Assembly (NCBI GenBank): GCA_945875925.1
Contig: CAMCME010000002.1
Coordinates: forward strand, 1,119-65,118
Source: Rickettsia typhi
Lineage (GTDB): Bacteria > Pseudomonadota > Alphaproteobacteria > Rickettsiales > UBA1997
Direction of reading: 5' to 3'
DNA length: 64,000 nucleotides
Below are positions 4,723 to 50,128 of this stretch, one piece after another. Positions within the stretch are counted from its first letter, which is position 1. Each line of letters opens with the position of its first letter. Made by a program: the position numbers and the translations under genes. A model generated the notes under the pieces. It was not told the origin of the DNA and made no database searches. It worked only from the letters and a program-made list of their open reading frames with translations.

Positions 4723-5742
4723 TTAACTAAAAACATTGACTGGGCTAAGTAGATTTTCTTCAAACTTACCTAAACCAATTAATTCACCATTATTAACAAC
4801 GCGAGCATTACTTAAACAAGATGGCTTGAGAGATGCATGATTTAAATCTGCAGTAGAATCTGAAACAAAATAATTGCCTGAAACAACATTGATTGTGACA
4901 ACCTGACCATTTTTGAACCTAGCGGCATCCAGATCATTTAAGCTGATCTCTATCATAAAATCTAAGACATCGTGCAAACAAAGCATCGAGCTATCAAGAA
5001 AACGGCCGCCATAATTAGCCAGCGTTTTTAACTTAGCAAGTGAAATTGTTTTGTCGTAAAAAAATTTTCCAACTTGCAGCCTAGTAAGCTCAGATACATA
5101 TCCGCAAACGCTAATTTTTCTGCATAAATCACGAGCAAAAGATCGCACATAAGTGCCTTTGGAACATTCAATTTCGAAGTCACCGAATTCTGCAGTATTT
5201 TGAATTAATTTGGCCGAAAAAATTGTCACTTCGCGTTCTTTAATTTCAAAATCTATATCTTTACGAGCCAATTCATAAGCTCTTACACCATTAATTTTTA
5301 TGGCTGAAAATCGCGAAGGAACTTGTCTGATTTTGCCGATAAAATGTGGTAAAGCCGAAATTATTGCCGCAGTTTTTGGCCTTGCTTCACTGGTTTCCAT
5401 AACTTTTCCTTCAATATCATCACTATCACGAAACTCACCCCAAGAAATTCTAAAAAAATATTTCTTCTGAGCTCCTTCAATATATTGGCAAGTTTTAGTG
5501 GCTTTATTTAAAGCTATAGGAAGAACGCCCGAGGCAAATGGATCAAGAGTTCCGGCGTGTCCAACTTTTTTGGCACCCGTAAGTCTTTTTACAATCGCCA
5601 CAACTTTAGCTGATGAATAGCCCAGAGGTTTGTCAATATTAAGCCAGATATTTTGGGATTGGAGATTCAAGGATTTGGGAGATTGGAAATTGCGATCTGT
5701 TATGCATCTTAGCAAAAAAAGAGATTTATGTAAGAAACACAA
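4723..5742 (-). CDS. truB: tRNA pseudouridine(55) synthase TruB
   Basis: Motifs WLNIDKPLGYSS and GHAGTLDPFASGVLPIAL (catalytic Asp). The ORF-track start is TTG. The true start is uncertain (alternative TTG at 5670). Confidence 0.88.
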   Translation of the reverse strand: MCFLHKSLFLLRCITDRNFQSPKSLNLQSQNIWLNIDKPLGYSSAKVVAIVKRLTGAKKVGHAGTLDPFASGVLPIALNKATKTCQYIEGAQKKYFFRISWGEFRDSDDIEGKVMETSEARPKTAAIISALPHFIGKIRQVPSRFSAIKINGVRAYELARKDIDFEIKEREVTIFSAKLIQNTAEFGDFEIECSKGTYVRSFARDLCRKISVCGYVSELTRLQVGKFFYDKTISLAKLKTLANYGGRFLDSSMLCLHDVLDFMIEISLNDLDAARFKNGQVVTINVVSGNYFVSDSTADLNHASLKPSCLSNARVVNNGELIGLGKFEENLLSPVNVFS

Positions 5743-12214: not shown

Positions 12215-12718
12215 TTGATTCAAAATAACATGACCATTACAGATAATAAAATCCTAATCATAGACAATGTTTTTACGCAAGCCGAATGTTCAGCCTTAAT
12301 TGAATATTATAATATTAGCGGCCCCACCCATAAATGGCAGAATTTTCTGCCGATGACTATAAAACAAAATGATGAGTTTTTAAGCCCTAGAATTAAGAAA
12401 ATAGAAAATTTAGCAAAAAATAATTTTGATCAAAATATAGTTATCGATTGGTGTGAAATTGTTAGATGGCCTGTTGAAGCTTTCCAAAATTTGCATTTGG
12501 ACACTTCAAATAAAAACACCATTTTAACATCAATCACTTATTTGAATAATGAATATGATGGCGGCCAAACTTTTATATATGAAGATATTGAGGTCATTCC
12601 AAAAATAGGCAGAACGGTGATTTTTAACGGCCAATTTTACAAACATGGTGTGAGAAAAATTCTATCAGGATCAAGATATACTTTACCAATTTGGTATAAA
12701 ATGAATGATGCTGTTTAA
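12215..12718 (+). CDS. 2OG-Fe(II) dioxygenase, prolyl 4-hydroxylase-like (paralogue 1)
   Basis: HxD...H...R triad (HLDTS, YKHGV, SGSRYTLPIWY) and YLNNEYDGGQT motif. The likely start is the ATG at 12230 rather than the TTG at 12215. Confidence 0.7.
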   Translation: MIQNNMTITDNKILIIDNVFTQAECSALIEYYNISGPTHKWQNFLPMTIKQNDEFLSPRIKKIENLAKNNFDQNIVIDWCEIVRWPVEAFQNLHLDTSNKNTILTSITYLNNEYDGGQTFIYEDIEVIPKIGRTVIFNGQFYKHGVRKILSGSRYTLPIWYKMNDAV

Positions 12719-12850: not shown

Positions 12851-13372
12851 ATGTCCTCTACAAACAATAAAATCATAGTCCTAGATAATGTTTTTACCAA
12901 AGAAGAATGTTTATCAATGACCTCTTATTATGATAACAACATCTCATCTTCTCAATTCAGCAAAGAAACTCTAAATAACTTTATCGACATCAATCTAAAT
13001 GATAGTTTTTTATCTCCTAAAATTAGAAAAGTAGAAAACATCGCCAGAAATAATTATGATCCAAATATAGGAATTGATTGGGGCCATGTTGTAAATTGGC
13101 CAGTTGGAGCTTCTCATAATTTGCATCTTGATTTCAGAAAACAAGACACCGTTTTATCATCAATAACATATTTAAATGATGATTACACTGGCGGAGAAAC
13201 CTTCATAAAAGATGATTTACAGATTATTCCAAAGGTGGGCAGAACTATATTTTTTAATGGTCAGCAATATGTACATGGTGTGAAAAAAATCTTATCAGGA
13301 TCAAGATATTCTTTACCACTTTGGTATAAAATGTATGACCCTGCTTTAAACGGACCGAAAATTACGCGTTAG
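12851..13372 (+). CDS. 2OG-Fe(II) dioxygenase, prolyl 4-hydroxylase-like (paralogue 2)
   Basis: 173 aa. Collinear with the preceding ORF (HLDFR, YVHGV, SGSRYSLPLWY, YLNDDYTGGET). Tandem duplicate. Confidence 0.7.
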   Translation: MSSTNNKIIVLDNVFTKEECLSMTSYYDNNISSSQFSKETLNNFIDINLNDSFLSPKIRKVENIARNNYDPNIGIDWGHVVNWPVGASHNLHLDFRKQDTVLSSITYLNDDYTGGETFIKDDLQIIPKVGRTIFFNGQQYVHGVKKILSGSRYSLPLWYKMYDPALNGPKITR

Positions 13373-16490: not shown

Positions 16491-17546
16491 ATGAAAACTT
16501 ATACAGAATTGCCATCGTCCAAAAAAACAACTCTTCCTGAAATAGAGAATTTATCAGGAGTAGTTGAAGAAAAGATTAAGAATGTCTTTATAAAAAATAT
16601 TGTAAAAAAATTTCTTGAAAATCTAGAATCACAAGAAGAAATATATGAAATCAACTCATTTATCGATACTTATAGTGAAGATCACGGGCAGAAATGTGAG
16701 GCATTTGTCCGAGCCATTAAAATGATGCGTTCCTTTACAGAAGGAAAATCAAAACCTAGCAATAGGGATATTGATAGGTTTGATAGTTTTGTAAAAAGTG
16801 TTGGAGTAGATTTTTGTTTTCAACTTACCAATGAGAGTAATGGATTGCTGCATTGCTTAACTCAGATTGGTGGACCACTAGAATTTCTAGAAGTTCTAAA
16901 AAATAATAATGCCGATTTTGCTTCCTCTAAAAGCGATTACCTTAACACACCGCTTCTTTGGGCAATAGCAAATGCCCAAAATGATTTCGCTGTAAGTTTT
17001 CTAGATTTCTCTTCTACCAATAATCTAGATGTCGGAATTGATCATCGCGCTTATGGTCACAATACCGCCTTGCATTTGGCCGCTGCAAAGGGATATGTCG
17101 ATCAAGATTATGACAAGGTAAAATTAAGAACATCAAGCGCCCAACTTACTCAAAATCTTATTAACAACGGCGCCAATCCTAATATTCTAAATGATCTTCA
17201 GTATAGCCCTCTTGACTTGGCGGTAATTCGTGGGGATTTAGAAACTACTCAAGCAATTTGTTCATCTTCAATTCTCAGCCACGAAACAATTACAAAGGCA
17301 CAAACTATAATTGAGGAAAGACAAAAAAATTCTCAGAACAATCCTGAATCTGCTAAAGAAGTAATATCTTTAATAACCCCAGAAAAAACTTTTCTAAATC
17401 CAAATGCAGGCAATTTTACAATAGAAAATATTCAAGAATTACAGAATTTATTAGAACAGACAAAATCTAAAGGACCAAGTAGCGCTATATCTCTATCAAA
17501 AGCAAATTCACTTATGCCCATCTCTGAACGCTGCATAATTTCATAA
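16491..17546 (+). CDS. Ankyrin-repeat protein (candidate host-interaction effector)
   Basis: 351 aa with at least three ANK-like units (TPLLWAIANAQNDFAVSFL; NTALHLAAAKGY; SPLDLAVIRGDLETTQAI preceded by LINNGANPN). No signal peptide. Confidence 0.7.
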   Translation: MKTYTELPSSKKTTLPEIENLSGVVEEKIKNVFIKNIVKKFLENLESQEEIYEINSFIDTYSEDHGQKCEAFVRAIKMMRSFTEGKSKPSNRDIDRFDSFVKSVGVDFCFQLTNESNGLLHCLTQIGGPLEFLEVLKNNNADFASSKSDYLNTPLLWAIANAQNDFAVSFLDFSSTNNLDVGIDHRAYGHNTALHLAAAKGYVDQDYDKVKLRTSSAQLTQNLINNGANPNILNDLQYSPLDLAVIRGDLETTQAICSSSILSHETITKAQTIIEERQKNSQNNPESAKEVISLITPEKTFLNPNAGNFTIENIQELQNLLEQTKSKGPSSAISLSKANSLMPISERCIIS

Positions 17547-21612: not shown

Positions 21613-22818
21613 TTACTTCCAAATAATCAAACACTTAAAAAGCTTGCCCATTTGCTTTTTATCAATCAGGCGATCGATTTCGCTATTGATTTCGTCTTGT
21701 TGCTGAAGCGATTTATTTTCGAGCAGAATTTTTCGGCGCTCTTCAATTCCAAGACTCAAGAAAAAATCTGCTTGTGAAATTAGTGAAGAATTTAGGCTGT
21801 AATTTTTTGCAATATTTTCAAGCATTGGGAAATTGACTAGAGCTGTAATATCAGCCTCTCCTGGAGTTTTTAGACAATCGTAGAATTGATGATTTTTTAA
21901 GGCTTGAAGTGTGTTTACGAAGTCGTTTTTTATGTAACCGTAATCGATGATAAGAGCAATTCCGCCTTGTTTTTGTAAGGCCAAAGACAATTCCTGCATG
22001 AAGTTCGCTGCAGAAAAACTATGTTCAAAAACTGCGCCTTCCCCTACAACCTCGTCATCCTTGGATGCTTCAGCATCCGAGGATCTCATAAGTTCAGCCT
22101 CCGAGCTTGCTGAGTTTAAGATTCCTGAGATCCTCGGCACTGCATGCCAAGGATGACGAGTGTTGGAATTGGTAAGTAATTTCTCAATAATGCCATTTTT
22201 TATTGGATCAAATTTTTCAGTAAAAAATCCTAATTCTTCACCATTAATTCCAACGGTTTTTTCGCACCAGCCTTGAGAATTTTTAATAAATTGATTGATG
22301 GCAAAGCAGTCAAATAGCTCGTTGGCGATGAAATAAATTTCTCTTTCTGGAATATTTTTTTCTAGGGAATTTGTAAAATCTTGAAAATTGCTAAACCAAT
22401 TTATTTGAACACCAATTTCACTTAAATTTTCTTGCTGATTTTTTTGTAAAGCAGGGCTGATTTCAACAATATTAAAAGTGGTTTTTCTTAAAAAATTCTG
22501 TGCTTCTGGAATATTTTTTTCTGCTAATTTTTTTATAACTTGAAGCAAATCTTTAAATAAATTGCCGCGTCCAGCACCCATTTCAACCAGCGCTATTGGC
22601 CTCTTTGCGTGACTTGCCAAATTTATAAAATAAATGGCAATTAACTCGCCAAAAACTTGGCTAATTTCTGGAGCTGTTGTGAAGTCGCCCGCTTTTCCGA
22701 TGGGAATTTTTTTTTGGTAATAGCCATAAGTAGGATTGAACAAAGCCTCATTCATAAATTCGGCGATTGTGATTGGTCCGTTAATTTTGATGAGGGATTT
22801 GAGGCTGTTGATTAGCAT
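21613..22818 (-). CDS. SAM-dependent methyltransferase, MidA/NDUFAF7 (DUF185) family, carrying an in-frame palindromic-element insertion
   Basis: N-terminus GPITIAEFMNEALFNPTYGYY....IGKAGDFTTAPEISQVFGE and EMGAGRG. Residues TRHPWHAVPRISGILNSASSEAELMRSSDAEASKDDEV are encoded by repeat 22051-22160. Confidence 0.8.
   Translation of the reverse strand: MLINSLKSLIKINGPITIAEFMNEALFNPTYGYYQKKIPIGKAGDFTTAPEISQVFGELIAIYFINLASHAKRPIALVEMGAGRGNLFKDLLQVIKKLAEKNIPEAQNFLRKTTFNIVEISPALQKNQQENLSEIGVQINWFSNFQDFTNSLEKNIPEREIYFIANELFDCFAINQFIKNSQGWCEKTVGINGEELGFFTEKFDPIKNGIIEKLLTNSNTRHPWHAVPRISGILNSASSEAELMRSSDAEASKDDEVVGEGAVFEHSFSAANFMQELSLALQKQGGIALIIDYGYIKNDFVNTLQALKNHQFYDCLKTPGEADITALVNFPMLENIAKNYSLNSSLISQADFFLSLGIEERRKILLENKSLQQQDEINSEIDRLIDKKQMGKLFKCLIIWK
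22051..22160. repeat. Palindromic element, family C, inside the MidA-like CDS
   Basis: 14-bp perfect termini CTCGTCATCCTTGG/CCAAGGATGACGAG, inner CGAGGATCTCA/TGAGATCCTCG stem and two side mini-hairpins. The host ORF stays open across it. Confidence 0.9.
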
Positions 22819-22833
22819 GGGAAAATATATTAT

Positions 22834-22922
22834 CTGTCATTTCGAGAACAGCGAGAAATCTCGGGAAGCTTAAACTCCAAGTTTCAATCTCATGAGATTT
22901 CTCGCTGCGCTCGAAATGACAG
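22834..22922. repeat. Palindromic element, family A
   Basis: CTGTCATTTCGAG..GCGAGAAATCTC arms with an inverted partner. Intergenic between hisH and the MidA-like gene. Confidence 0.9.
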
Positions 22923-22957
22923 CTTGGTTAGAAAGATAGTCTGTGTTAAAGACTAAA

Positions 22958-28647: not shown

Positions 28648-29694
28648 ATGAATAAATTAATTAATACTCTTCTCAAGAAAGAGAATCTTGATCAAGAAAA
28701 AATAAATCCGCCAATTTGGATTATGAGACAAGCCGGAAGATATTTACCAGAATATCGCGCCGTAAGATCGAATGTAACTAATTTTTTAGAACTTTGTTAC
28801 ACACCAAAATTAGCTTCAGAAGTTACTCTACAACCAATCTCTAGATTTGATTTTGATGCAGCAATTATATTTTCAGATATTCTTGTAATACCTGACGCTC
28901 TAGGAGTTAAGGTTGAATTTGTAAAAAATGAAGGACCGAAATTACAAAAAATTTCTAAGTTAGAAGATTTAAAAAACTTAAAGACGGGCAATATTAAAAG
29001 ACATTTGCAGCCAGTTTTTGAAGCTCTAGCACTTACCAAATCAAAATTAGATAGCAGTAAAGCCTTAATTGGATTTTCAGGCTCTCCTTGGACTTTAGCT
29101 TGTTATATGATTGAAGGTGGTGGATCGAAAAATTTCGAAAATACTCGTAAAAGTGCAATCAAAGATGAAGAATTTTTTGCACAGTTAATTGAAATTTTAA
29201 CCCAAAGTATAATTGAATATCTATCTCACCAAATCAATGCTGGTGCGGATGTGGTAAAATTATTCGATTCTTGGGCGGGAGTTTTGCCACCATCACAATT
29301 AAGAAAATGGGTGATTGAACCGACTAAAAAAATTGTTTCTGAATTGAGAAAACTTCATCCAAACACTCCTTTAATTTGCTTCCCGCGCGGCATTGGCATT
29401 ATGTATGAAGAATTTTCTAGAGAAGTCGGATCAGCTGGTTTGGCTTTAGATCAAACGGTTGAAAAAAATTGGGCGAAGAAAAATTTGCAGGAAAATTTAG
29501 GACAAGTGGTGCAAGGAAATTTGGATAATATTTTGCTTGCTTGTGGATCGAAAAAAGAAATTGAAAAAGAGGTTTTGAGTATTTTAGAAACTTTTGGAGA
29601 TCAGCCTTTTATTTTCAATTTGGGTCATGGAATTATTCCTGAAACTCCGATTGAAAATGTGGAGTTGGTGATGAAGTTGGTTAGAGGGAATTAG
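28648..29694 (+). CDS. hemE: Uroporphyrinogen decarboxylase
   Basis: 348 aa with PPIWIMRQAGRYLPEYR and the FSDILVIPDALG and DSWAG motifs. Confidence 0.92.
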   Translation: MNKLINTLLKKENLDQEKINPPIWIMRQAGRYLPEYRAVRSNVTNFLELCYTPKLASEVTLQPISRFDFDAAIIFSDILVIPDALGVKVEFVKNEGPKLQKISKLEDLKNLKTGNIKRHLQPVFEALALTKSKLDSSKALIGFSGSPWTLACYMIEGGGSKNFENTRKSAIKDEEFFAQLIEILTQSIIEYLSHQINAGADVVKLFDSWAGVLPPSQLRKWVIEPTKKIVSELRKLHPNTPLICFPRGIGIMYEEFSREVGSAGLALDQTVEKNWAKKNLQENLGQVVQGNLDNILLACGSKKEIEKEVLSILETFGDQPFIFNLGHGIIPETPIENVELVMKLVRGN

Positions 29695-29721
29695 TATAAT
29701 TTGGGGTTATATACTTAAATT

Positions 29722-29829
29722 ATTTCTCGTTGTCATCCTCGCGAAAGCAGGGATCCAGTGCGATTTTTAAACATTTAGGAAACTAACTTCTGGATCCCAG
29801 CTTTCGCGAGGATGACAACGAGAAGAAAT
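29722..29829. repeat. Palindromic element, family B (GTCATCCTCGCGAAAGCAGGGATCCAG..)
   Basis: Long inverted arms including the flanks ATTTCTCGTTGTCATCC/GGATGACAACGAGAAGAAAT. It lies between the convergent hemE and nucleotidyltransferase genes. Sister copy at 60727-60837. Confidence 0.9.
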
Positions 29830-29841
29830 ATTATAACATTC

Positions 29842-30603
29842 CTAAAGATTTTCCTCGGTCATTTTCACCGCATCCACAGTTCCAATGTGAAAATATTTTC
29901 CTTTTAGTTCAATTCCATGAACGCGGTGTAATAGGCCATTTTCTCCAACCGCAGATTTGTAGAAATGTGACATTGAAAAACAATTTCCTGTCACTTCTTT
30001 TTTAGCGCGATTCAAAATTTTTGGATTGATAATTTGTAGCCCCACAAAAACATGGCTCATCGCTTGGTCAGAATATCTAAGTAAAGTTCCGCCGGCAAAA
30101 TTAAAATCTCCGCCACCGTGAATATTTCCGTCATAACCTAAATAATCTTCAGTCTTTTTTAGGCCTAAAAGAATATCACACTGCCCAGGGTTCCAAGCCT
30201 TAGAAATTAAATCAATGTCAGAATTTAATCCTTCATCTTGCCATAAAATATCGCCATTTATGGTAAGAAGTGGTTCGTCAAAATTGATTTTATCTTTAGC
30301 AAATAAAAGCCCGCCACCAGTTTCAACTTTTTCAACTTCGCGAGAAAAAATAATTTTCGGATTATTTAATTTTTTAATGTGAGCTTCCAGCTGATCAGCC
30401 AAATAAAATCCGTTAATAATAATTTTTTTAATATCAGGAATTTGATCTAATTTTTCGATTGAATAATCGATGATAGATTTGTTTTTGATTTTAATAAGTG
30501 GTTTGGGAGTTGTTTCAGTTAAAGGTCTCATGCGTTCTCCGCGACCTGCTGCAAAGATGAAACTTTGTGTAATTTTAGTCATTATTTTCACTGTTATTTT
30601 CAA
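29842..30603 (-). CDS. Sugar-phosphate nucleotidyltransferase (MurU/mannose-1-P guanylyltransferase-like)
   Basis: N-terminal FIFAAGRGERMRPLTETTPKPL nucleotide-binding motif. The likely start is the ATG at 30582 (MTKITQS), giving an 8-nt overlap with the upstream ABC gene. Confidence 0.7.
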   Translation of the reverse strand: MKITVKIMTKITQSFIFAAGRGERMRPLTETTPKPLIKIKNKSIIDYSIEKLDQIPDIKKIIINGFYLADQLEAHIKKLNNPKIIFSREVEKVETGGGLLFAKDKINFDEPLLTINGDILWQDEGLNSDIDLISKAWNPGQCDILLGLKKTEDYLGYDGNIHGGGDFNFAGGTLLRYSDQAMSHVFVGLQIINPKILNRAKKEVTGNCFSMSHFYKSAVGENGLLHRVHGIELKGKYFHIGTVDAVKMTEENL

Positions 30604-32464
30604 TTATAAATCCACCCACTTGTGAATCCCAAAGTTTTTTGTAAATGCCATTAAGATTAAGTAAATCTTGATGTGAACCATCTTCAATAATTTTACCAGC
30701 ATCAAAAACTAAAATGCGATCCATGCGTTTCAGTGTTGAAAGACGATGAGCCACAACCAGTGTGGTTTTATCTTTCATTAAATTTTCTAAACTTTCTTGA
30801 ATTAAATTTTCAGTGATTGAATCAAGTTGGCTGGTTGCTTCATCTAAAATTAAAATCGGTGCATTTTTTAAGAAAGCTCGCGCAATAGCAATTCTTTGGC
30901 GCTGTCCTCCAGATAATTTTACGCCGCGCTCGCCAACTAAAGAATCATAGCCTTCAGGTAAATTCTCGATAAATTCATGAGCGTGGGCTTTTTTAGAAGC
31001 TTCAATGACGGCTTTACTATTTTCGCCGTCATCCTTGGACGCATCTGCGTCCGAGGATCTTTTGAAGTTGAACTCATGAGATCCTCGATGCTGCGCATCA
31101 AGGATGACGAGGTTGGGGTTATTTATGATGACGGATGGGAAAATTCCATAAGAAATATTTTCCAAAAGGCTGCGATGAAAAAGCGACGGATCTTGCGGAA
31201 TCATGCCAATTTTCGCGCGCAGAGATTCTTGCGTAACTTTAGAAATATCTTGTCCGTCAATTAAAATTTTCCCCGAATCAATATCAAAAAATCGTAAAAT
31301 TAAATTTACAAAAGTGGTTTTCCCACTTCCAGAATGACCAACTAAACCAACCTTCTGGCCCGATTTTATTGTAAGAGATTTATTAGAAAAAAGAGGCGAT
31401 AAATTTTTGTAATAATTGAAACCAACATTTTCAAAAATGATTTCTCCGCGATCAACCACAAGAGTTTTAGCGCCTTCAATATCCTTTATTTGCAAAGGTT
31501 CATTGATCACAGATAAAGCCTGATTAATTGTTCCAACATCTTCCAAAAATCCACTCATTTCATTGGCCGACATCCACATTAAATGAATGATCCAATTATT
31601 AATTGTGAAGAGCATTAGAAAATCGCCAAGAGTGACAAGGCCTTCAGAATAAAGCCAAATTAAACCGACAATGCAGAAGATAAAATAAGCGGTAAAAGTG
31701 AAGGAGTGATAGATGTAGAATTTAATCAAAAAAGCGTTTCGGCGTTTAGAAAGTTTGGAATATTCATCTTGAAAAATATTAATTCTATCTCTTTCAAAGC
31801 GTGATCTGGCAAAGAGTCTAACATTTGCAATATTGCTTAAAACATCAACCAAATTACCCATAATTTTGGTTTGTTGATCGGCGGCGGCAACAGAAAGAGG
31901 ATCAGAAATTTTCGCCGCTTTTAGCGCCATTAAAATAAAAATTATGGCCCAAAAAATTAAGGCAAAAGCGAAGGCTTTGTGAATTGAGAAAAGTGCAACA
32001 AAGGCAATTACTAAACTTAAAAATACATTTAAGAAACTGTAAAGAATACGCCCAAGCATTGTTGGCGTGCAGCTCGCAAGATCACGAACTTTATTTGCTA
32101 AAGAACCAGAAAAATTATTTTGGAAAAAATTATGCGAATGTTGCATGGCATAATCCATTGATTCAGCAGTAATTTTTTTCTTCATTGCGGGCGTTAAATG
32201 CATCCAAGAAAAATCACAAAGTCGCCAAACTAAACCCGGCAAGATTGTAAAAATAATCAGCAATAGCGAAATTCCCCAAGTTTCAGAAACTGCATTTTGA
32301 TAAGGTGTGCTGGCTAATTTATCGAGCAGAAGTTTGGAAAGATAAGGCCAAAGAGAAAGATCAACGGCATTATAAAACACCACAAAAAGATGCAGGCCAA
32401 CATAGAATTTGAAAGGCCTGATCGAATTTATAAGAAATGAAAATGCGGTGTATTTTTTGGGCAT
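30575..32464 (-). CDS. ABC exporter, fused permease/ATPase (MsbA/multidrug type), carrying an in-frame palindromic-element insertion
   Basis: 629 aa with six TM segments, Walker A GHSGSGKTT, LSGGQRQRIAIARA and ILILDEATS. The peptide VILDAQHRGSHEFNFKRSSDADASKDD between ENISYG and the AHEFI..LP.GYD region is encoded by repeat 31027-31110. Confidence 0.9.
   Translation of the reverse strand: MPKKYTAFSFLINSIRPFKFYVGLHLFVVFYNAVDLSLWPYLSKLLLDKLASTPYQNAVSETWGISLLLIIFTILPGLVWRLCDFSWMHLTPAMKKKITAESMDYAMQHSHNFFQNNFSGSLANKVRDLASCTPTMLGRILYSFLNVFLSLVIAFVALFSIHKAFAFALIFWAIIFILMALKAAKISDPLSVAAADQQTKIMGNLVDVLSNIANVRLFARSRFERDRINIFQDEYSKLSKRRNAFLIKFYIYHSFTFTAYFIFCIVGLIWLYSEGLVTLGDFLMLFTINNWIIHLMWMSANEMSGFLEDVGTINQALSVINEPLQIKDIEGAKTLVVDRGEIIFENVGFNYYKNLSPLFSNKSLTIKSGQKVGLVGHSGSGKTTFVNLILRFFDIDSGKILIDGQDISKVTQESLRAKIGMIPQDPSLFHRSLLENISYGIFPSVIINNPNLVILDAQHRGSHEFNFKRSSDADASKDDGENSKAVIEASKKAHAHEFIENLPEGYDSLVGERGVKLSGGQRQRIAIARAFLKNAPILILDEATSQLDSITENLIQESLENLMKDKTTLVVAHRLSTLKRMDRILVFDAGKIIEDGSHQDLLNLNGIYKKLWDSQVGGFIIENNSENND
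31027..31110. repeat. Palindromic element, family C, inside the ABC exporter CDS
   Basis: 84 bp (28 codons) with termini CGTCATCCTTG/CAAGGATGACG and side hairpins GGACGC-ATCT-GCGTCC and GATGC-TGC-GCATC. I translated the whole element by hand and it reads through. Confidence 0.9.
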
Positions 32465-35786: not shown

Positions 35787-35835
35787 TAATAAATTTATAT
35801 TGCAAATGCCATAAACCGCTAGGTTGAACCACAAA

Positions 35836-35948
35836 AGACCGCCGGTTGAGCGGAGTCGAAACCAGCGGAAGATTTCTGCTGCGGACTTTATAAAACACTA
35901 TACGGCAGGAACCTTCCGCTGGTTTCGACTCCTCTCAACCGGCGGTCT
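35836..35948. repeat. Palindromic element, family F
   Basis: ~36-bp arms AGACCGCCGGTTGAGCGGAGTCGAAACCAGCGGAAG and the inverted copy, starting 5 nt after the purB stop. Confidence 0.85.
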
Positions 35949-35952
35949 CAAC

Positions 35953-37266
35953 TTATTTTCCGAAAACTTGCGTAAAAATATGATCCACATTTTTAGTGTG
36001 GTAAGACAAATCAAAAATCGAGGCCAATTTTTCATCACTAATTTTTCCTTGAACTTCTGGGTCAGTTTTTAGCAATTCTAAGAAATCTATATTTTCTTTC
36101 CAAACTCTCATAGCATTGGTTTGAACTATGCGGTAAGCGTCCTCGCGAGAAATTCCAGCATCTTCAATTAAAGTTAAAAGCACGCGCTGCGAAAACACTA
36201 GGCCTTTCAAACGATCTAAATTTCTTTTCATATTTTCTGGATAAACCAAAAGATTTTCGATCAATGAAGTCAGACGATTCAGCGCGAAATTTAAAGTTAC
36301 AGTGGCGTCAGGCGCGATCATTCTTTCAACTGAAGAATGAGAAATGTCGCGCTCATGCCATAAAGCAACATTCTCTAAAGCTGGCACAACGGCGCTACGC
36401 ACAATTCTGGCAAGACCCGTTAGATTCTCACTTAAAACTGGATTGCGCTTATGTGGCATTGCTGAGGAGCCTTTTTGGCCTTTAGAGAAAAACTCTTCAA
36501 CTTCTAAAACTTCGGTGCGTTGTAAATGGCGAATTTCGATGGCTAAGTTTTCAACTGAAGAAGCGATAACGCCAAGAACTGAGAAGAAAAATGCGTGACG
36601 ATCTCTAGGAATAACTTGAGTTGAAACTGGCTCTTCAGCAAGGCCCATTTTTTCAGCAACATGTTTTTGCACTGAAGGATCGATGTTAGCGAAAGTGCCA
36701 ACAGCGCCAGAAATTGCGCAAACTGCGATTTCTTTTCTAGCAGCTTTTAAGCGGGCTAAATTTCTTTCAAACTCGGCGTAAAAGCGCGCTAGCTTTAAGC
36801 CGAAAGTTACAGGTTCAGCGTGAATTCCGTGAGAGCGGCCTACACAAACTGTGTCTTTATGTTCAAAAGCGCGTTTTTTTAAGGCGGCTAAAAGCCTTTC
36901 TAAATCGGCAATTAAAATATCTGAAGCTTGAGAAAGTTGCACAGAAAGGCAGGTGTCAAGCACATCTGAGCTGGTCATGCCAAGATGCACGAAGCGAGAA
37001 TTGTCACCAACTAATTCAGCTAAATGAGTTAAAAAAGCGATCACATCATGTTTTGTAACTGATTCAATTTCATCAATGCGGGCCGCATTAAATTTGCCGC
37101 CAGATTTTTTGAAATTTTCGCGAATGGTTGCAGCTGCACCTTGAGGCGCCACACCAATTTCTTCAAATGCTTCCAAAGCATAAGTTTCAATATCAAACCA
37201 AATTTGATATTTATTTTCTTCCAACCAAATTTTGGTCATTTCAGGGCGTGAATAGCGAGGGATCAT
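35953..37266 (-). CDS. purB: Adenylosuccinate lyase
   Basis: MIPRYSRPEM.. start, fumarate-lyase signature GSSAMPHKRNP. The track ORF extension to 37359 reads through repeat 37307-37362 and is rejected. Confidence 0.93.
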   Translation of the reverse strand: MIPRYSRPEMTKIWLEENKYQIWFDIETYALEAFEEIGVAPQGAAATIRENFKKSGGKFNAARIDEIESVTKHDVIAFLTHLAELVGDNSRFVHLGMTSSDVLDTCLSVQLSQASDILIADLERLLAALKKRAFEHKDTVCVGRSHGIHAEPVTFGLKLARFYAEFERNLARLKAARKEIAVCAISGAVGTFANIDPSVQKHVAEKMGLAEEPVSTQVIPRDRHAFFFSVLGVIASSVENLAIEIRHLQRTEVLEVEEFFSKGQKGSSAMPHKRNPVLSENLTGLARIVRSAVVPALENVALWHERDISHSSVERMIAPDATVTLNFALNRLTSLIENLLVYPENMKRNLDRLKGLVFSQRVLLTLIEDAGISREDAYRIVQTNAMRVWKENIDFLELLKTDPEVQGKISDEKLASIFDLSYHTKNVDHIFTQVFGK

Positions 37267-37306
37267 GGGATTTAAAAATAATTTAATAACAAATTTTATC
37301 CGGGCC

Positions 37307-37362
37307 GTCATGTCGACCGCAGTGAGACATCTCATGAGATGTCTCACTGCGTTCGACATGAC
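37307..37362. repeat. Palindromic element, family A, minimal form (arms only)
   Basis: 56-bp hairpin GTCATGTCGACCGCAGTGAGACATCTCAT|ATGAGATGTCTCACTGCGTTCGACATGAC with a single mismatch and no central spacer. Confidence 0.9.
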
Positions 37363-37373
37363 AAAAAGGAGAA

Positions 37374-39570: not shown

Positions 39571-39676
39571 CGTCATCCTTGGGCGCTTTAGCGTCCGAAG
39601 ATCTCAGGAGTTCGTCTGATAATTAAAATGGAGTTCAAACTCATGAGATCCTCGGCCACAGGGGCCAAGGATGACG
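39571..39676. repeat. Palindromic element, family C (intergenic)
   Basis: CGTCATCCTTGG..CCAAGGATGACG termini, side hairpins GGGCGC-TTTA-GCGTCC and GGCC-ACAG-GGCC, and the CTCATGAGATCCTCGG core. Confidence 0.9.
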
Positions 39677-45013: not shown

Positions 45014-46678
45014 TTATTGATGTAGATTTAGATAGTGCTTTGTTGCTTCAGTATCCAAAAATTTAGGATAAGTTTTTACTAGCCTCTTTCCATTCTCATC
45101 GAAGCTCATTGCTTCCATTAAACCGCTTTCAGCAACATCAATATTTTTTTCTCTTATTCTTAAATAGTTCTTTTGAGTCCATCCTAAAATACATTTATGA
45201 AGAGCTTTAACTGCTCTATAATCAGGCATAATTGTTTTACTTTCCATTTGAAGACCCATGACATTTAGACATAGCCCTAAAATTTTTATAGATAGGTAAT
45301 TAGGGAATTCTTCCATCCTTTTTATTTCTGAATAAATACGGCGACATAGTCGGGAATGAATTATTTTTTGGGCATGATTTCTTTGATCAACAAAGCTAAA
45401 ATAATTATTCCATACTGTATTATGCTGCACTTGCCAGCTAGTATCAAAAGGAGCTTTAACGGAAGCAACATTGGACAAGACATCAAACATCGATTCGACT
45501 AGAACATCATAGTAGTCATTAAAGTGACCACTAGATTTTAATTTTCTCCTAATTGCTGATCCGTCTTTTTCTTTTAACAGCTTTACTAGATCTTTAATAA
45601 AATCTGAAACTACCTCAAGTCTTCGATAAGCATCAGTATTATAAAAATCGGAAACATTATTGATTTTATAAATATCAGTACATCTTCCAGTAATGAATCC
45701 TAGCGTTCTGTTAAAAGTGGTTTGATGAGTATCGATAGTGCTATTCTCTAAGCAGTCTTTTACAAAAATCAGAAAAGATTTTGTGTAAACTTTTAACTGC
45801 GATGCGTCTAAGCTCGACAGTGTTTTGTAGTCTATGTCAAAGGGAGTTTGATGAGATAAAGAGCTGACTAATTTACAGTTTCCAAAAACTGCTTTACTGA
45901 ATGGTTTTATATAGCCAATTAGACCTGAATTATATCCCTCATCTTCATGATACAAAATTGAGTCTTTATCAAGCAATGCTTCAGCAGCAATGTTGGTTGC
46001 AAAAGTACCAATCGGCAGTTGATATTTTCTATTTCGAGTCATTTCCTCAAAGAATGCTATGGCTGTAATCGGAGTGTTAGATACAATGTATTTGCAGAGC
46101 TTTCTATTTCCGATTAACAGAAGTATTTCGTATGCACATTGACCAATATCAAATTTATTTTTTGTGTTACGATTTTTTTCATCCTTCTTTTGCCAGCTTG
46201 GAATAACAATATTTGAATATTTAACAATATTTGGGGCTGATCGATTTAACTCGTTGGCGATAATGGGTAAATCTACTGCTGATCCTTTTACAATCTCCCG
46301 ATAAAGCTCTTGAATAAATCTGGTATAATTTTTCTTAGAAAAAACCGGAGGTATTATGAATGCATACCGAATCCAGCTAGATAATAAGATAACAAAAAAA
46401 GTAGCGAAGCTTGATTGCCAATAAGCCTGAACACTTAAAAAGCTTGGCATCATCCATCCTTTTTCAAACCAAACGTCACTTAATAAAGTTCCAACCGCAA
46501 TTAACAGGGTCAGTAAAAAGGTTTCCGTTAGCAAAGATATCTTTTCGAACGATGTTGGAGCTATAGAGATACGAAATTTGTAGCGCGTATCAGTGATTGT
46601 ATATAGCACCATTAAAAGCGAAAATGCTGCGATAAATTCAGCAAAACCAAAAATCGGATTTTTTATTGGGATTGGCAT
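45014..46678 (-). CDS. Orphan membrane-anchored protein (about 4 N-terminal TM helices plus ~420-aa soluble helical region), no recognisable family
   Basis: Long uninterrupted ORF (554-569 aa depending on the start; ATG at 46678 preferred). It has hydrophobic N-terminal segments and I recognise no catalytic motif. Confidence 0.55.
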   Translation of the reverse strand: MPIPIKNPIFGFAEFIAAFSLLMVLYTITDTRYKFRISIAPTSFEKISLLTETFLLTLLIAVGTLLSDVWFEKGWMMPSFLSVQAYWQSSFATFFVILLSSWIRYAFIIPPVFSKKNYTRFIQELYREIVKGSAVDLPIIANELNRSAPNIVKYSNIVIPSWQKKDEKNRNTKNKFDIGQCAYEILLLIGNRKLCKYIVSNTPITAIAFFEEMTRNRKYQLPIGTFATNIAAEALLDKDSILYHEDEGYNSGLIGYIKPFSKAVFGNCKLVSSLSHQTPFDIDYKTLSSLDASQLKVYTKSFLIFVKDCLENSTIDTHQTTFNRTLGFITGRCTDIYKINNVSDFYNTDAYRRLEVVSDFIKDLVKLLKEKDGSAIRRKLKSSGHFNDYYDVLVESMFDVLSNVASVKAPFDTSWQVQHNTVWNNYFSFVDQRNHAQKIIHSRLCRRIYSEIKRMEEFPNYLSIKILGLCLNVMGLQMESKTIMPDYRAVKALHKCILGWTQKNYLRIREKNIDVAESGLMEAMSFDENGKRLVKTYPKFLDTEATKHYLNLHQ

Positions 46679-46701
46679 AACATGGCATATGCTCAAAACT
46701 A

Positions 46702-47155
46702 TTAATTTACATGCTGGTTCCATACTAGATACTTGTTTAGTCCCCTTGAATAATGGACAGGGTTTTGGTGAAAAACTTTCGAGTTTTTCTTAAACTCTTG
46801 GATAAGAAATTCAAAAGGTGTTTTAAAGGCAAGTGATTTTAGTTTTTTCGCAAAATTATAGGCAAGCATGAATTGATTCAGATGCTTTTCCAAATGCTCT
46901 AAACTGTCATAGTGATAGGTTTTTGTAGTGGCGTCTTTAATCGTTCGATTGGTTCGCTCTACTTGTCCATCTACTTGTCCATTGGTCCAAGGGTGTCTGA
47001 ACTTTGTGAGCTTATGTTTAATCGCATGTTTTTTGCAGAGTAAATCAAATGGGTGAAACGATTTGGGGCGCAAGTGTTTGACTAGCAAAGCGTAAGTGAA
47101 CTGAGCTCCGTTTTCCGTTAAAATTCTGTGAATCTTGTAAGGACAAAGCTCAATT
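46702..47155 (-). mobile_element. Remnant of an IS481/IS3-type transposase (DDE 'rve' integrase core, C-terminal part only)
   Basis: PYKIHRILTENGAQFT...HPWTNGQV(DGQV)ERTNRTIK...YNFAKKLKSLAFKTP. There is no N-terminal HTH part and no terminal inverted repeats were seen. The 5' junction position is approximate. Confidence 0.7.
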
Positions 47156-47304
47156 ACTTCCTGCAAAAACTCAATCACCTTTTCATCTTGATTAATCAAA
47201 GCAAAAACTTCCGCATCATCTTCGCGCCATTGTCGCAGAATTAATCTTTTAGTTTCGATGTTTTTTTGATTATTTGCATGAAACTCCAACTGCCTGCGAA
47301 ACAT
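47156..47304 (-). pseudogene. N-terminal fragment of a GNAT (RimJ/RimL-like) acetyltransferase fused in frame to the IS remnant
   Basis: TKRLILRQWREDDAEVFALINQDEKVIEFL resembles GNAT N-termini. The rest of the acetyltransferase is absent. It overlaps the pyrD 3' end. Confidence 0.45.
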
Positions 47305-48340
47305 TCTTAAACCCATCTTTTTTCACCAGCTCATTCAAGTCTTTTTTAATTCTTTCAACCAGTCCAAATCCTTCATAAATAAAGGCAGAATAAATTTGCA
47401 CCAAAGATGCGCCACTTTTAATTTTTTCGTAAGCATCCGCAGCGCTCGCAATTCCACCCACACCAATCAAAGGAATTTTGCCGCCAGTTAATTTGTAAAA
47501 ATTCTGCAACACTTCATTAGATTTTTTAAGTAAAGGCGCGCCACTTAATCCGCCAGTTTCAGACGCATATTTACTTTTCAAATTCAGGTCGCGCGAAATT
47601 GTAGTATTGCTGATAATCACGCCATCAATTTGGTTTTTTAAAACAGTTGCAGCAATTTGCTCTTGCTCGGCTGTTGTCAAATCTGGCGCTATTTTAAGTA
47701 ATATCGGAACTTCACGATTATATAATTTTTTAAGCTGAGATTTTTTCTTAATAATCTCGCCCAAAAATAAATCCAATTGATCTTCTTTTTGTAAATCACG
47801 CAGATTCTTGGTATTTGGCGAAGAGATATTAATGGTGATGTAAGATGCTGGAGAATAAAACCTGTCCATCAGCTTCAAATAGTCGCTCACAGCATCTTCT
47901 GTATCTTTATTTTTGCCGATATTGGCGCCTAAAATTAGATTATCATTTTTTTCAGAAGCAGTTTTAAAAAGATTTTCAGCAAAATTTATTTCGCCTAAAT
48001 TGTTAAAACCCAAACGATTAATAATCGCTTTATCTTCTTCAAGGCGAAAGATTCTGGGTTTGTTATTTCCGCTCTGCGCTAAAGGCGTCACAGTTCCACA
48101 TTCCACAAATCCAAAACCAAATTTAGACAATTTTCTGACAACTTGGGCATTCTTATCAAAACCAGCGGCCATGCCAATAGGGTTTTTAAAATCAAGGTTC
48201 AGCAACTTCTGATTGAGATTTTCATATTCCTTAACTTGTGGAAAACATGGATTAAATTTTAGAAATTTAATGGCTAAATTATGAGCAGTTTCTGGTTCAA
48301 TTTTGAAAATCAGTGGACGAATAATTTGATAAAAATTCAT
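47270..48340 (-). CDS. pyrD: Dihydroorotate dehydrogenase (quinone), class 2
   Basis: 356 aa with N-terminal MNFYQIIRPLIFK..PE.AH, the GFNN.G pattern, NISSPNT and a C-terminal GAS.VQ.YSA..Y.G. Confidence 0.92.
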   Translation of the reverse strand: MNFYQIIRPLIFKIEPETAHNLAIKFLKFNPCFPQVKEYENLNQKLLNLDFKNPIGMAAGFDKNAQVVRKLSKFGFGFVECGTVTPLAQSGNNKPRIFRLEEDKAIINRLGFNNLGEINFAENLFKTASEKNDNLILGANIGKNKDTEDAVSDYLKLMDRFYSPASYITINISSPNTKNLRDLQKEDQLDLFLGEIIKKKSQLKKLYNREVPILLKIAPDLTTAEQEQIAATVLKNQIDGVIISNTTISRDLNLKSKYASETGGLSGAPLLKKSNEVLQNFYKLTGGKIPLIGVGGIASAADAYEKIKSGASLVQIYSAFIYEGFGLVERIKKDLNELVKKDGFKNVSQAVGVSCK

Positions 48341-50030: not shown

Positions 50031-50128
50031 CGTCATCCTTGAGCCTGAAAGGCTCGAGGATCTCATGACTCTTAGTCTCTGAAGCTAAAACTCATGAGAT
50101 CCTCGGCCGCGTGCGGCCAAGGATGACG
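50031..50128. repeat. Palindromic element, family C (intergenic)
   Basis: CGTCATCCTTG..CCAAGGATGACG termini with side hairpins GAGCC-TGAAA-GGCTC and GGCCGC-GT-GCGGCC. Confidence 0.9.

What the first reader, a model, noticed from the sequence alone, without database searches (positions are those of the whole stretch)
31027..31110. Second in-frame family-C insertion, in the ATPase domain of an ABC exporter; shared peptide with the first
The 84-bp (28-codon) element is read through as VILDAQHRGSHEFNFKRSSDADASKDD. It lies between the conserved ENISYG and A..FI..LP.GYD segments of the nucleotide-binding domain. The distal arm is read in the same frame as in the MidA-like gene, giving RSSDA(E/D)ASKDD(E/G) in both proteins. 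The proximal arm is read in different frames (RHPW versus VILD). Both host genes otherwise keep all catalytic motifs, which suggests the proteins tolerate or exploit the insert.
Basis: seen in the sequence. Interest (0 to 1): 0.65.

Follow-up and report, generated by a model that had tools for sequence, protein, structure and literature searches.

The report
Palindromic repeat inside ABC transporter gene
A small selfish palindromic DNA repeat, of the kind long known from Rickettsia, has landed in frame in a floppy surface loop of an ABC exporter's ATPase domain in an uncultured freshwater bacterium; the protein probably just tolerates it, so the case is real but mostly ordinary.

Summary
An 83-bp nested palindrome (31027-31109) is read through in frame in the ABC exporter gene 30575..32464 (-), giving VILDAQHRGSHEFNFKRSSDADASKDD between ENISYG and the next helix.

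The extra DNA is longer than 84 bp. Against an insert-free allele at about 96% identity, the window has 134 nt where that allele has 29 (+105 nt, 35 codons). This includes a unique 34-nt tail.

The element is a head-to-head pair of CGTC-tagged REP hairpins, the superfamily that includes Rickettsia palindromic elements RPE-4 and RPE-6. In-frame insertion of these is well documented.

The peptide shared with the MidA-like gene is a by-product. TGA codons close the other frames of that arm. Open readings end in KDD or RMT, and the two copies have similar arm sequences.

AlphaFold2 models the insert as low-confidence loop. The catalytic motifs are intact, dN/dS against the insert-free allele is 0.12, and the insert-bearing allele occurs in lake and river metagenomes from at least four studies. 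Tolerance is supported; use of the insert is not.

One feature is less ordinary. At least five independent palindromic insertions, from several families, sit in this same loop in orthologues, next to the residue that aligns with CFTR F508.

Verdict: new member of a known kind.

The parts
30575..32464 (-). Host gene: ABCB-type half-transporter (transmembrane domain plus nucleotide-binding domain), 629 aa. Walker A (GHSGSGKT), Q-loop (IPQDP), signature (LSGGQ), Walker B (ILILDE) and H-loop (AHRLS) are all present.
   Evidence: ORF. Pfam ABC_membrane 2.1e-19 and ABC_tran 1.6e-34. PDB hits to ABCB19, P-gp, Sav1866, Atm1 and MsbA. 120 orthologues listed, mostly 586-610 aa.
31027..31109 (-). Family-C palindrome, 83 bp: a head-to-head pair of CGTC-tagged REP-like hairpins. 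Read in frame as (L)VILDAQHRGSHEFNFKRSSDADASKDD.
   Evidence: Folds as a four-way junction: RNA -48.8 kcal/mol, z = -6.1; DNA z = -5.7.
31080..31109 (-). Gene-proximal arm: GATCCTCG-ATGCTGCGCAT-CAAGGATGACG on the + strand, with a hairpin of 11-nt inner part. Read as VILDAQHRGS.
31027..31059 (-). Gene-distal arm: CGTCATCCTTG-GACGCATCTGCGTC-CGAGGATC on the + strand, with a hairpin of 14-nt inner part. Read as RSSDADASKDD. Frame-by-frame translation of copies C1-C4 shows this arm open only in the KDD frame.
31110..31143 (-). 34-nt non-palindromic tail that is part of the extra DNA relative to the empty allele. It encodes IFPSVIINNPN(L), is unique in the data held, and carries a second partial terminus, GATGACGG, at 31127-31134.
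   Evidence: Similar second termini lie beside other copies.
31010..31143 (-). Whole stretch that cannot be aligned to the insert-free allele: 134 nt here against 29 nt in L001-L003 and run X14.
31004..31011 (.). AATGACGG, a direct repeat of GATGACGG at 31127-31134. The two flank the palindrome at 15 and 17 nt. This may be a target duplication or a coincidence with the V-I-E codons.
   Evidence: Read from the sequence. Unresolved.
22053..22158 (-). Family-C copy C1 (106 bp), in frame in the MidA-like (Methyltransf_28) gene 21613..22818. It is also present in the sister lineage L001. Only 1 of its 6 frames is open, and that is the one used.
39571..39676 (.). Family-C copy C3 (106 bp), intergenic between the engB-like and rimK genes. 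Shared with L001. 0 of 6 frames open.
50031..50128 (.). Family-C-like copy C4 (98 bp), intergenic. 0 of 6 frames open.

Best explanation
A mobile, non-autonomous palindromic repeat inserted into the ABC exporter gene of this freshwater bacterium, whose closest named relatives are labelled Rickettsiales.

The repeat is a head-to-head pair of CGTC-tagged REP-type hairpins. This is the superfamily to which Rickettsia palindromic elements RPE-4 and RPE-6 belong.

It landed in the short surface loop that follows ENISYG, at the start of the helical subdomain of the nucleotide-binding domain. It happened to be in an open frame, so the gene now encodes about 35-39 extra residues, which are modelled as a low-confidence loop.

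The insert is a tolerated passenger. Selection removed copies that hit structured regions or brought stop codons, and this one survived.

The peptide shared with the MidA-like protein exists for two reasons. The arm has TGA in TCA-TGA and in GGA-TGA-CG, which close the other frames in these copies, and the two copies have similar arm sequences. The proximal frames differ because the two copies differ in length by 23 nt.

Shown: the anatomy, the empty allele, the frames, the family's distribution, covariation of the hairpins, purifying selection on the host gene, and the model with a low-confidence loop.

Inferred: the act of transposition, the enzyme that moves the element, and the neutrality of the insert.
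For: Empty site. The closest orthologue P0002 (594 aa, 97% identity over aligned residues) on three JGI lake contigs lacks the insert. So does run X14, and so do almost all of about 118 orthologues.

Recent mobility. In 22 kb shared with L001 at about 96% identity there are five length differences. In each, the DNA that only the window has is built around a palindromic element.

Family.
- The same architecture occurs in many freshwater MAGs labelled Rickettsiales, Holosporaceae or Alphaproteobacteria.
- Most copies are intergenic; about 6 of 65 lie in long ORFs.
- The arm hairpin is strongly supported by covariation: 96.3% of cells are paired, there are 88 double changes against 27 in shuffles (0 of 500 shuffles reach this), and slid controls give 31-47%.

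Frames. C1 has 1 of 6 frames open and C2 has 3 of 6. The intergenic copies C3 and C4 have 0 of 6. Open readings end in KDD (49) or RMT (40). The family mean of open frames is no higher than shuffled sequence.

Host gene.
- dN/dS is 0.12 overall and 0.16 in the nucleotide-binding domain.
- The motifs are intact.
- AlphaFold2 gives mean pLDDT 85, with residues 444-478 below 50, between helices 433-438 and 480-492.
- There is no terminator-like site at the element.
- The insert-bearing allele is found in lakes and rivers in four studies.

Precedent. RPEs insert in frame in many Rickettsia genes (PMC10969869, PMC1779305). CGTC REPs and their dimers are catalogued inside genes, with peptides ending GND or GMT (PMC3733652).
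Against: - No RNA or protein data exist for this organism, so expression of the insert-bearing protein is inferred.
- The boundaries are not clean. There is a 34-nt unique tail, a 12-nt difference beside it, and no clear target duplication, so a simple cut-and-paste picture is not shown.
- One insert-bearing river lineage (X10, X13) has 8 nonsynonymous against 9 synonymous codon changes in the nucleotide-binding half. These include P423Q, at a position conserved in at least 90% of 81 orthologues, and R529Q, at a position invariant in them. This could mean relaxed constraint after insertion.
- X10 is a mosaic: its transmembrane half resembles L001. Loss of the insert in L001, or spread of the insert by recombination, cannot be fully excluded.
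- Recurrent insertions at one loop could reflect targeting or benefit rather than a pure selection filter.
Confidence: 0.85

Rival explanations
1. The insert has been put to use. It could act as a lengthened loop next to the domain-coupling interface that tunes the transporter. Or it could act as a strong RNA structure inside the coding region that slows translation or changes mRNA stability.
For: - The allele persists in several lakes and rivers.
- At least five independent palindromic insertions occur in this same loop in orthologues.
- The loop directly follows the residue aligned with CFTR F508.
- The palindrome is still perfect and folds at -48.8 kcal/mol.
Against: - The insert is modelled with pLDDT below 50.
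- The inserted peptides in orthologues are unrelated in sequence.
- Polymorphisms inside the insert include two amino-acid changes.
- The older MidA insert evolves faster than its host.
- The family shows no enrichment of open frames.
- The closest relative does without the insert.
Confidence: 0.08
2. The insertion disabled the gene, or is disabling it. The ABC exporter is a young pseudogene whose frame merely has not broken yet.
For: - The river lineage carrying the insert has P423Q and R529Q at conserved positions, and roughly equal numbers of nonsynonymous and synonymous changes in the nucleotide-binding half.
- The insert lies next to the aromatic residue that aligns with CFTR F508. From general knowledge, that residue contacts the transmembrane domain.
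Against: - The ORF is intact in every population seen.
- dN/dS is 0.12 against the insert-free allele.
- The window allele keeps every conserved residue of 81 orthologues.
- The loop varies in length among orthologues.
Confidence: 0.05
3. The difference is a deletion in the sister lineage rather than an insertion here. The element would be old in this gene, and L001 lost it, leaving the odd loop NENTLHLFDP.
For: - All five length differences with L001 go the same way, which would also fit a lineage that purges repeats.
- L001's loop is about 4 residues longer than usual.
- P0016 has a short family-C-like remnant (PVILES...LQAKDG), and P0052 has family C at the same site.
- X10 is L001-like in half the gene yet has the insert.
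Against: - About 110 of 118 orthologues, including all those at 73-81% identity except P0005 and P0016, have a short loop.
- The family-C copies in the window and in P0052 have unrelated hairpin and spacer sequences.
- The palindrome here is undecayed.
Confidence: 0.1
4. The insert is removed after transcription or translation, like an intron or an intein, so the mature protein lacks it.
For: None found.
Against: - The insert is 83-117 nt, far too small for a group I or II intron or an intein.
- Rfam finds nothing there.
- The same family is mostly intergenic.
- From general knowledge, RPE-bearing Rickettsia genes are described as transcribed and translated with the insert; this was not checked in the papers read here.
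Confidence: 0.01

Closest known systems
Rickettsia palindromic elements (RPE-1 to RPE-10; Ogata et al. 2000 and 2002; Claverie and Ogata 2003)
   Same: - Dispersed palindromic repeats of about 100-150 bp in an AT-rich alphaproteobacterial genome.
- Found both between genes and in frame inside unrelated housekeeping genes.
- Each family gives a recurring peptide.
- The papers read here describe RPE-bearing proteins as predicted to stay compatible with fold and function.
   Different: - The host here is an uncultured freshwater bacterium, not the genus Rickettsia.
- Sequence homology to a particular RPE family could not be tested, because no RPE models or sequences were at hand.
- The palindrome is shorter (83-106 bp) and has a clear four-way-junction layout.
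CGTC-tagged REPs and their head-to-head dimers (Di Nocera, De Gregorio and Rocco 2013, PMC3733652; CGTC-1 = RPE-6, CGTC-4 = RPE-4)
   Same: - A CGTC tag at the outer end.
- A stem that starts with A-T then T-A.
- Head-to-head dimers with a structured spacer.
- Mainly alphaproteobacterial.
- Many intragenic copies read as (VIP|RHP|SF)...(GND|GMT), matching VIL/RHP...KDD here.
- No associated transposase.
   Different: - The stem is 11-12 bp, not 8-9.
- The loop is 3-4 nt, not 4-5.
- The tail is CTC(A), not CCA.
- So it fits none of the four described CGTC families exactly.
REPINs mobilised by RAYT transposases (GTAG REPs; Bertels and Rainey 2011; Nunvar et al. 2010)
   Same: Two inverted REP hairpins form one larger mobile hairpin, with compensatory changes in the stems and insertion polymorphism between close relatives.
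   Different: The tag is CGTC, not GTAG. No RAYT or IS200/IS605 gene was seen in the 64-kb window. The rest of the genome was not available.
Classical bacterial MITEs (Correia/NEMIS, ERIC, RUP, BOX)
   Same: Short, non-autonomous, terminal inverted repeats, occasional in-frame fusions with host ORFs.
   Different: No clear target-site duplication and no parent IS with matching ends were identified. The internal hairpins covary, which is typical of REPs rather than of IS-derived MITEs.

Membership tests
CGTC-tagged REP superfamily (head-to-head dimers) | Unpaired CGTC (or TGTC/CCTC) tetranucleotide at one end of each hairpin unit | tested here: met
   Both arms start with CGTC-ATCC. The same holds in the 59 distinct arms aligned in A5.
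CGTC-tagged REP superfamily (head-to-head dimers) | Stem-loop whose stem begins with complementary A-T, T-A pairs | tested here: met
   Pairs 4-28 (AU in 53 of 59) and 5-27 (UA in 59 of 59).
CGTC-tagged REP superfamily (head-to-head dimers) | Stem of 8-9 bp, loop of 4-5 nt, tail fitting CCA (families CGTC-1 to CGTC-4) | tested here: not met
   The stem is 11 bp with a 3-nt loop in the short arm and 12 bp with a 4-nt loop in the long arm. The tail is CTC(A). It is a new variant, not one of the four described families.
CGTC-tagged REP superfamily (head-to-head dimers) | Units mostly paired in opposite orientation (head-to-head dimers), able to fold into a larger structure | tested here: met
   65 paired elements of 60-130 bp were recovered. 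The fold is a four-way junction with z = -6.1.
CGTC-tagged REP superfamily (head-to-head dimers) | No dedicated flanking transposase | tested here: inconclusive
   No Y1 or RAYT gene among the window ORFs scanned, only an rve_3 fragment at 46702-47316. Only 64 kb of the genome was seen.
Rickettsia palindromic elements (RPE) | Palindromic dispersed repeat found both between genes and in frame inside protein-coding genes | tested here: met
   Four family-C copies in the window, two of them in frame. About 17 palindromic elements of several families in the window, of which only these two are intragenic.
Rickettsia palindromic elements (RPE) | Insertion at a site compatible with the protein fold (a surface loop away from catalytic residues) | tested here: met
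   AlphaFold2 gives pLDDT below 50 for residues 444-478 between two confident helices. The loop length varies among orthologues. The motifs are intact.
Rickettsia palindromic elements (RPE) | Sequence match to one of the RPE-1 to RPE-10 models; host in the genus Rickettsia | not testable with these tools
   No RPE models or Rickettsia genomes were available. Rfam has no such family. The closest named relatives of the host are 'MAG: Rickettsiales bacterium'.
REPIN / RAYT system | GTAG tag and an associated RAYT gene flanked by the repeats | tested here: not met
   The tag is CGTC. No RAYT in the window.
MITE (IS-derived) | Terminal inverted repeats plus a target-site duplication of fixed length | tested here: inconclusive
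   Terminal inverted repeats are present: (CT)CGTCATCCTTG. At the one coding site with a known empty allele no clean duplication is seen. A 7-8-nt direct repeat (A/G)ATGACGG lies 15-17 nt outside the palindrome.
ABCB-type (type IV) exporter half-transporter (host gene) | N-terminal six-helix ABC_membrane domain, C-terminal ABC_tran domain, all ATPase motifs | tested here: met
   Pfam, PDB hits and the AlphaFold2 model with pTM 0.78.

The most novel reading that the evidence does not exclude
The loop just after the F508-equivalent aromatic residue of this ABC exporter orthogroup may be a true insertion hot spot for CGTC-type palindromic elements. At least five independent events by several families are seen, and family C appears twice in orthologues only 63% identical.

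That would mean either that the elements choose their target, for example through a CGTCAT-like cue or a local DNA or RNA structure, or that a longer loop (or an RNA roadblock at this point of the nucleotide-binding domain) is advantageous for folding or for coupling to the membrane domain.
Probability: 0.1. Interest if true: 0.6.

Novelty: new member of a known kind. Interest (0 to 1): 0.33.

Why it matters
- It extends the 'selfish DNA inside protein genes' phenomenon, described for Rickettsia and some other Alphaproteobacteria, to uncultured freshwater relatives.
- It comes with a rare natural control. Insert-bearing and insert-free alleles of the same gene differ by about 4% at the DNA level and co-occur in public lake metagenomes.
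- It shows that these CGTC-type repeats were mobile recently: five presence/absence differences in 22 kb. The 2013 survey of CGTC repeats left open whether they still move.
- It shows that a shared 'insert peptide' needs no functional explanation.
- The repeated hits on one loop of the nucleotide-binding domain, beside the residue aligned with CFTR F508, mark that loop as exceptionally permissive. This is of some use for protein engineering, and it gives a testable case of targeting versus selection.

Tried and rejected
- Exact look-up of the window's protein found nothing. The recorded cluster member P0001/L004 differs by E464K.
- A search of the protein database with the insert peptide failed. 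The 30-aa query was too short, and the 44-aa query shared too few indexed words with any protein. It was replaced by a DNA scan of species-representative genomes and an ORF test.
- A scan of metagenome contigs for the native/tail junction TATGGAATTTTCCCATCC, meant to find an allele with the tail but without the palindrome, returned 23 unrelated chance matches. The insert boundaries stay ambiguous.
- RNA runs: none listed.
- Rfam: only two tRNAs in the window.
- Terminator and promoter scan: nothing at the element.
- An outgroup contig (P0003, L122) was fetched to tell whether the intergenic differences are insertions or deletions. Gene order differs beyond the neighbouring gene, so it did not help.
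- Search for a transposase in the window: no IS200/IS605 or RAYT gene, only an rve_3 fragment.
- Assembly artefact was considered and rejected.
- Intron or intein was considered and rejected on size, and because the family is mostly intergenic.
- Many single hits of the DNA pattern in GC-rich Actinomycetota, Planctomycetota and similar genomes are treated as chance. By my own estimate, 19 specified bases in 596 Gb should give tens of chance matches.
Full report
**1. What is at the coordinates**

Window 31027-31109 holds an 83-bp nested palindrome, CGTCATCCTTG...CAAGGATGACG. It lies inside a 629-aa ORF on the minus strand (30575..32464). That ORF has an ABC_membrane domain and an ABC_tran domain. 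Its best solved relatives are ABCB-type exporters: ABCB19, P-glycoprotein, Sav1866, Atm1 and MsbA.

The ORF reads ...ENISYG IFPSVIINNPNL VILDAQHRGSHEFNFKRSSDADASKDD GENSKAVIEASKKAHAHEFIENLPEGYD.... Its 27 codons run from 31108 down to 31028. The interval 31027-31110 is off the codon grid by one to two bases, and gives another frame if translated as written.

The arm pattern GATCCTCG-N11-CAAGGATGACG occurs three times in the window, against 0.00 expected in shuffles. There are four copies in all:
- C1, 22053-22158, inside the MidA-like (Methyltransf_28) gene.
- C2, 31027-31109, the copy under study.
- C3, 39571-39676, intergenic.
- C4, 50031-50128, intergenic and slightly different.

**2. An empty site exists, and the insert is longer than the palindrome**

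The closest orthologue, P0002, is 594 aa and 97% identical over aligned residues. It reads ENISYGNENTLHLFDPVIEAAKK. Its gene lies on three JGI lake contigs (L001-L003) that are collinear with the window at about 96% DNA identity.

At the DNA level, window 31010-31143 (134 nt) stands against 29 nt in that allele, a net +105 nt or 35 codons. The most economical alignment keeps GAAAATA on the gene-3' side of the insert in both alleles. It then makes the insert 2 + 83 + 34 nt, with a separate 12-nt difference further on.

The 34-nt tail (31110-31143, encoding IFPSVIINNPN) is not repeated anywhere else in the data held. It contains a second partial terminus, GATGACGG. A direct repeat of that, AATGACGG, lies on the other side at 31004-31011.

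Other parsings are possible. The tail could be a diverged native loop, or the 7-8-nt repeat could be a target duplication around a 123-nt unit. I could not decide among them. A metagenome scan for an intermediate allele gave only chance hits.

The same pattern is seen at other loci. About a dozen of some 130 termini have a second CGTCATC 15-35 nt outside the palindrome (my count from the listings). These include the family-C copy in the orthologue on L120.

**3. The insert is real and widespread**

An independent ENA contig (L004) carries the insert with one change, E464K. Contigs from seven public runs in four studies of lakes and rivers span it without gaps. They show 1 to 19 differences per 800-1000 nt.

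Run X14 carries the empty allele. A second, more divergent contig in X3 is 123 nt shorter across the same region. No RNA run could be found.

**4. What the element is**

Folded as RNA or as DNA, the element forms a four-way junction:
- an outer stem, CGTCATCCTTG paired with CAAGGATGACG;
- two arm hairpins;
- a central stem, CGAGGATCTC paired with AAGATCCTCG in this copy (consensus CGAGGATCTCATGAG / CTCATGAGATCCTCG).

The RNA fold is -48.8 kcal/mol with z = -6.1. The DNA fold has z = -5.7.

A scan of one genome per species found the same architecture in many freshwater MAGs. Their labels include Rickettsiales, Holosporaceae and 'uncultured Alphaproteobacteria', and some are mislabelled Rickettsia typhi or Rhizobium. 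Single matches in unrelated GC-rich genomes I take as chance.

Among 212 arms there are 175 different inner sequences, yet most form a 4-6-bp stem right next to the conserved flanks. The mean perfect stem is 3.35, against 0.60 when shuffled. A formal count was made on 59 distinct arms of equal length:
- 96.3% of cells are paired, against 83.1% in shuffles and 31-47% in slid controls.
- There are 88 double-sided changes against 27 expected.
- None of 500 shuffles reaches either value.

Each arm is therefore a conserved hairpin with this layout: tag CGTC, a stem starting A-T then T-A, about 11-12 bp, a 3-4-nt loop, and tail CTC(A). The two arms face each other.

This is the layout of the CGTC-tagged REPs and their head-to-head dimers described by Di Nocera et al. 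(PMC3733652). Those authors equate CGTC-1 and CGTC-4 with the Rickettsia palindromic elements RPE-6 and RPE-4. They list dozens of intragenic copies, whose peptides run VIP.../RHP.../SF... to ...GND/...GMT. The peptides here run VIL.../RHP... to ...KDD.

Stem, loop and tail lengths differ from the four described CGTC families. This is a new variant within that superfamily.

In-frame insertion of such palindromes is the hallmark of RPEs. Nearly half of the copies in R. conorii sit in ORFs (PMC10969869, PMC1779305).

**5. Why the two proteins share a peptide**

I translated every copy in all six frames. The arm contains TCA-TGA (in CTCATGAG) and GGA-TGA-CG (in the terminus). In copies C1-C4 the distal arm is open only in the frame ...(M/K)RSS...KDD.

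Whole-element readings that stay open end in KDD (49 cases) or RMT (40 cases) across the 65 elements.

C1 has 1 open frame of 6, and it is the one the MidA-like gene uses. C2 has 3 of 6. The intergenic C3 and C4 have none.

C1 and C2 also have similar long arms, GGATGC-TGAA-GCATCC against GGACGC-AGAT-GCGTCC, which differ by a compensatory pair. So the shared RSSDA(E/D)ASKDD follows from the DNA.

The proximal frames differ (RHPW versus VILD) because the copies differ in length by 23 nt.

The family as a whole is not enriched for open frames: 1.57 of 6, against 1.45 for shuffled copies. About 6 of 65 copies lie inside long ORFs. This is what a selection filter on random insertions would leave, not a design for translation.

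**6. Is the host protein still working?**

The evidence in favour:
- Walker A, Q-loop, signature, Walker B and H-loop are all present.
- The window allele keeps every column that is invariant in 81 orthologues.
- dN/dS against the insert-free allele is 0.12 (0.16 in the nucleotide-binding domain), much like the 0.10 of the MidA-like gene outside its insert.
- An AlphaFold2 model built on 81 sequences has mean pLDDT 85 and pTM 0.78. Residues 444-478 are below 50, between helix 433-438 (ENISYG) and helix 480-492. The extra residues are thus modelled as a low-confidence loop.
- No terminator-like site lies at the element.

Inside the inserts, constraint looks weak:
- Two of three polymorphisms in C2 change the amino acid: E464K and A473T.
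- The older C1 insert has dN/dS of about 0.59, on three changes.

One caveat concerns a river lineage that also carries the insert (X10, confirmed at depth 16.5 in X13). In the nucleotide-binding half it differs from the window by 9 synonymous and 8 nonsynonymous codon changes. These include P423Q, at a position conserved in at least 90% of the 81 orthologues, and R529Q, at an invariant position. That lineage may be drifting.

X10 also looks recombinant, since its membrane half resembles L001. The history of the insert among these populations is therefore not a simple tree.

**7. Recent mobility**

In the 22 kb shared with L001 there are five length differences. In each, the DNA that only the window has is built around a palindromic element, and several families are involved. 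The five are at 22819-22956, 29694-29842, 31010-31143, 35789-35962 and 37269-37373. C1 and C3 are shared with L001.

For the ABC gene, the many insert-free orthologues make absence the ancestral state. For the intergenic sites the direction could not be set.

No IS200/IS605 or RAYT gene is in the window, only an rve_3 fragment at 46702-47316. This agrees with the published remark that CGTC repeats lack a dedicated transposase.

**8. The less ordinary part: one loop, many hits**

Among about 118 close orthologues, eight have an enlarged loop at exactly this place. DNA was read for five of them, counting the window. All five are strong palindromes, with G+C above the rest of the gene in every case, most clearly in the window, L118 and L120:
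- the window: family C;
- L120/P0052: family C again, in an orthologue 63% identical, with unrelated hairpin sequences;
- L119/P0029: a TGTC-tagged family, also present in P0096;
- L118/P0005: a 126-nt near-perfect palindrome of another family;
- L121/P0073: 318 nt.

P0016 has what looks like a decayed family-C remnant.

No palindromic insert was seen elsewhere in the protein. The other insertions are N-terminal extensions, one 20-residue block in P0110, and a clade-wide 27-39-residue block between strands of the nucleotide-binding domain.

So the loop follows the residue equivalent to F508, which in ABC exporters contacts the coupling helix (general knowledge).

Either this is simply the most permissive loop, which I think most likely, or the elements have a target preference, or a longer loop brings some benefit. 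Di Nocera et al. note one similar coincidence, in Xanthomonas recB.

**9. Verdict**

The insert is tolerated, but there is no sign that it is exploited.
- The thing is a new variant of a known kind of element doing a known thing: in-frame RPE / CGTC-REP insertion.
- The natural pair of insert-bearing and insert-free alleles, and the repeated hits on one loop, give it modest extra interest.

Noticed in passing
window 22819-22956, 29694-29842, 35789-35962, 37269-37373: Four further length differences against the sister lineage L001 (about 96% identity). In each, the DNA that only the window has is built around a strong palindrome of a different family. Each also carries 15-50 nt of non-palindromic flank. 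In L001 the neighbouring genes abut or overlap instead.
   Followed up: partly
window 46702-47316 and 45014-46723: A 204-aa ORF with an integrase-core (rve_3) match sits next to a 569-aa ORF with no Pfam match. This may be a remnant of an IS or another mobile element. It is the only transposase-like gene seen in the window.
   Followed up: no
window 12215-12718 and 12851-13372: Two tandem paralogous 2OG-Fe(II) oxygenase genes, with DNA repeat D1 at 71% identity over 300 nt.
   Followed up: no
window 16491-17546: An ankyrin-repeat protein (351 aa). Ankyrin repeats are common in host-associated bacteria, so this hints that the organism may live with a eukaryotic host.
   Followed up: no
orthologues P0092, P0095, P0107-P0110, P0112-P0115, P0118-P0120 (alignment A4, after window residue 357): A clade-wide 27-39-residue insertion with a DW(E/S)L(V/I)G motif lies between the first strands of the nucleotide-binding domain. 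It is duplicated in P0092. It appears conserved rather than palindromic.
   Followed up: no
runs X10 and X13, laid on window 30575-32464: A river population carries the insert, but its membrane-domain half matches the insert-free L001 type at many sites. This suggests recombination within the gene between lineages. It also has P423Q and R529Q at conserved positions.
   Followed up: partly
L014, L115, L080 (both flanks of family-C copies): In some MAGs the 25-40 nt on both sides of a family-C copy are themselves near-identical inverted repeats, for example ...TTCGCCGATAAAAAAACCTTCAAAACT|CGTC. Some copies therefore sit inside a larger repeated unit.
   Followed up: no
L027 68-222; L038 2-263: Tandem arrays of partial family-C termini: CGTCATYCTTTTACRAGCT repeated three times in L027, and a 116-bp periodic array in a rumen Bacteroidales MAG (L038). 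Both resemble the clustered CGTC repeats reported for Wolbachia and Neisseria.
   Followed up: no
window 1917-4247 and 4723-5742: The PNPase ORF (776 aa) and the TruB ORF (339 aa) look somewhat longer than I recall as typical. I did not check whether this reflects start-codon choice or further in-frame inserts. TruB is a known RPE-1 target in R. conorii.
   Followed up: no
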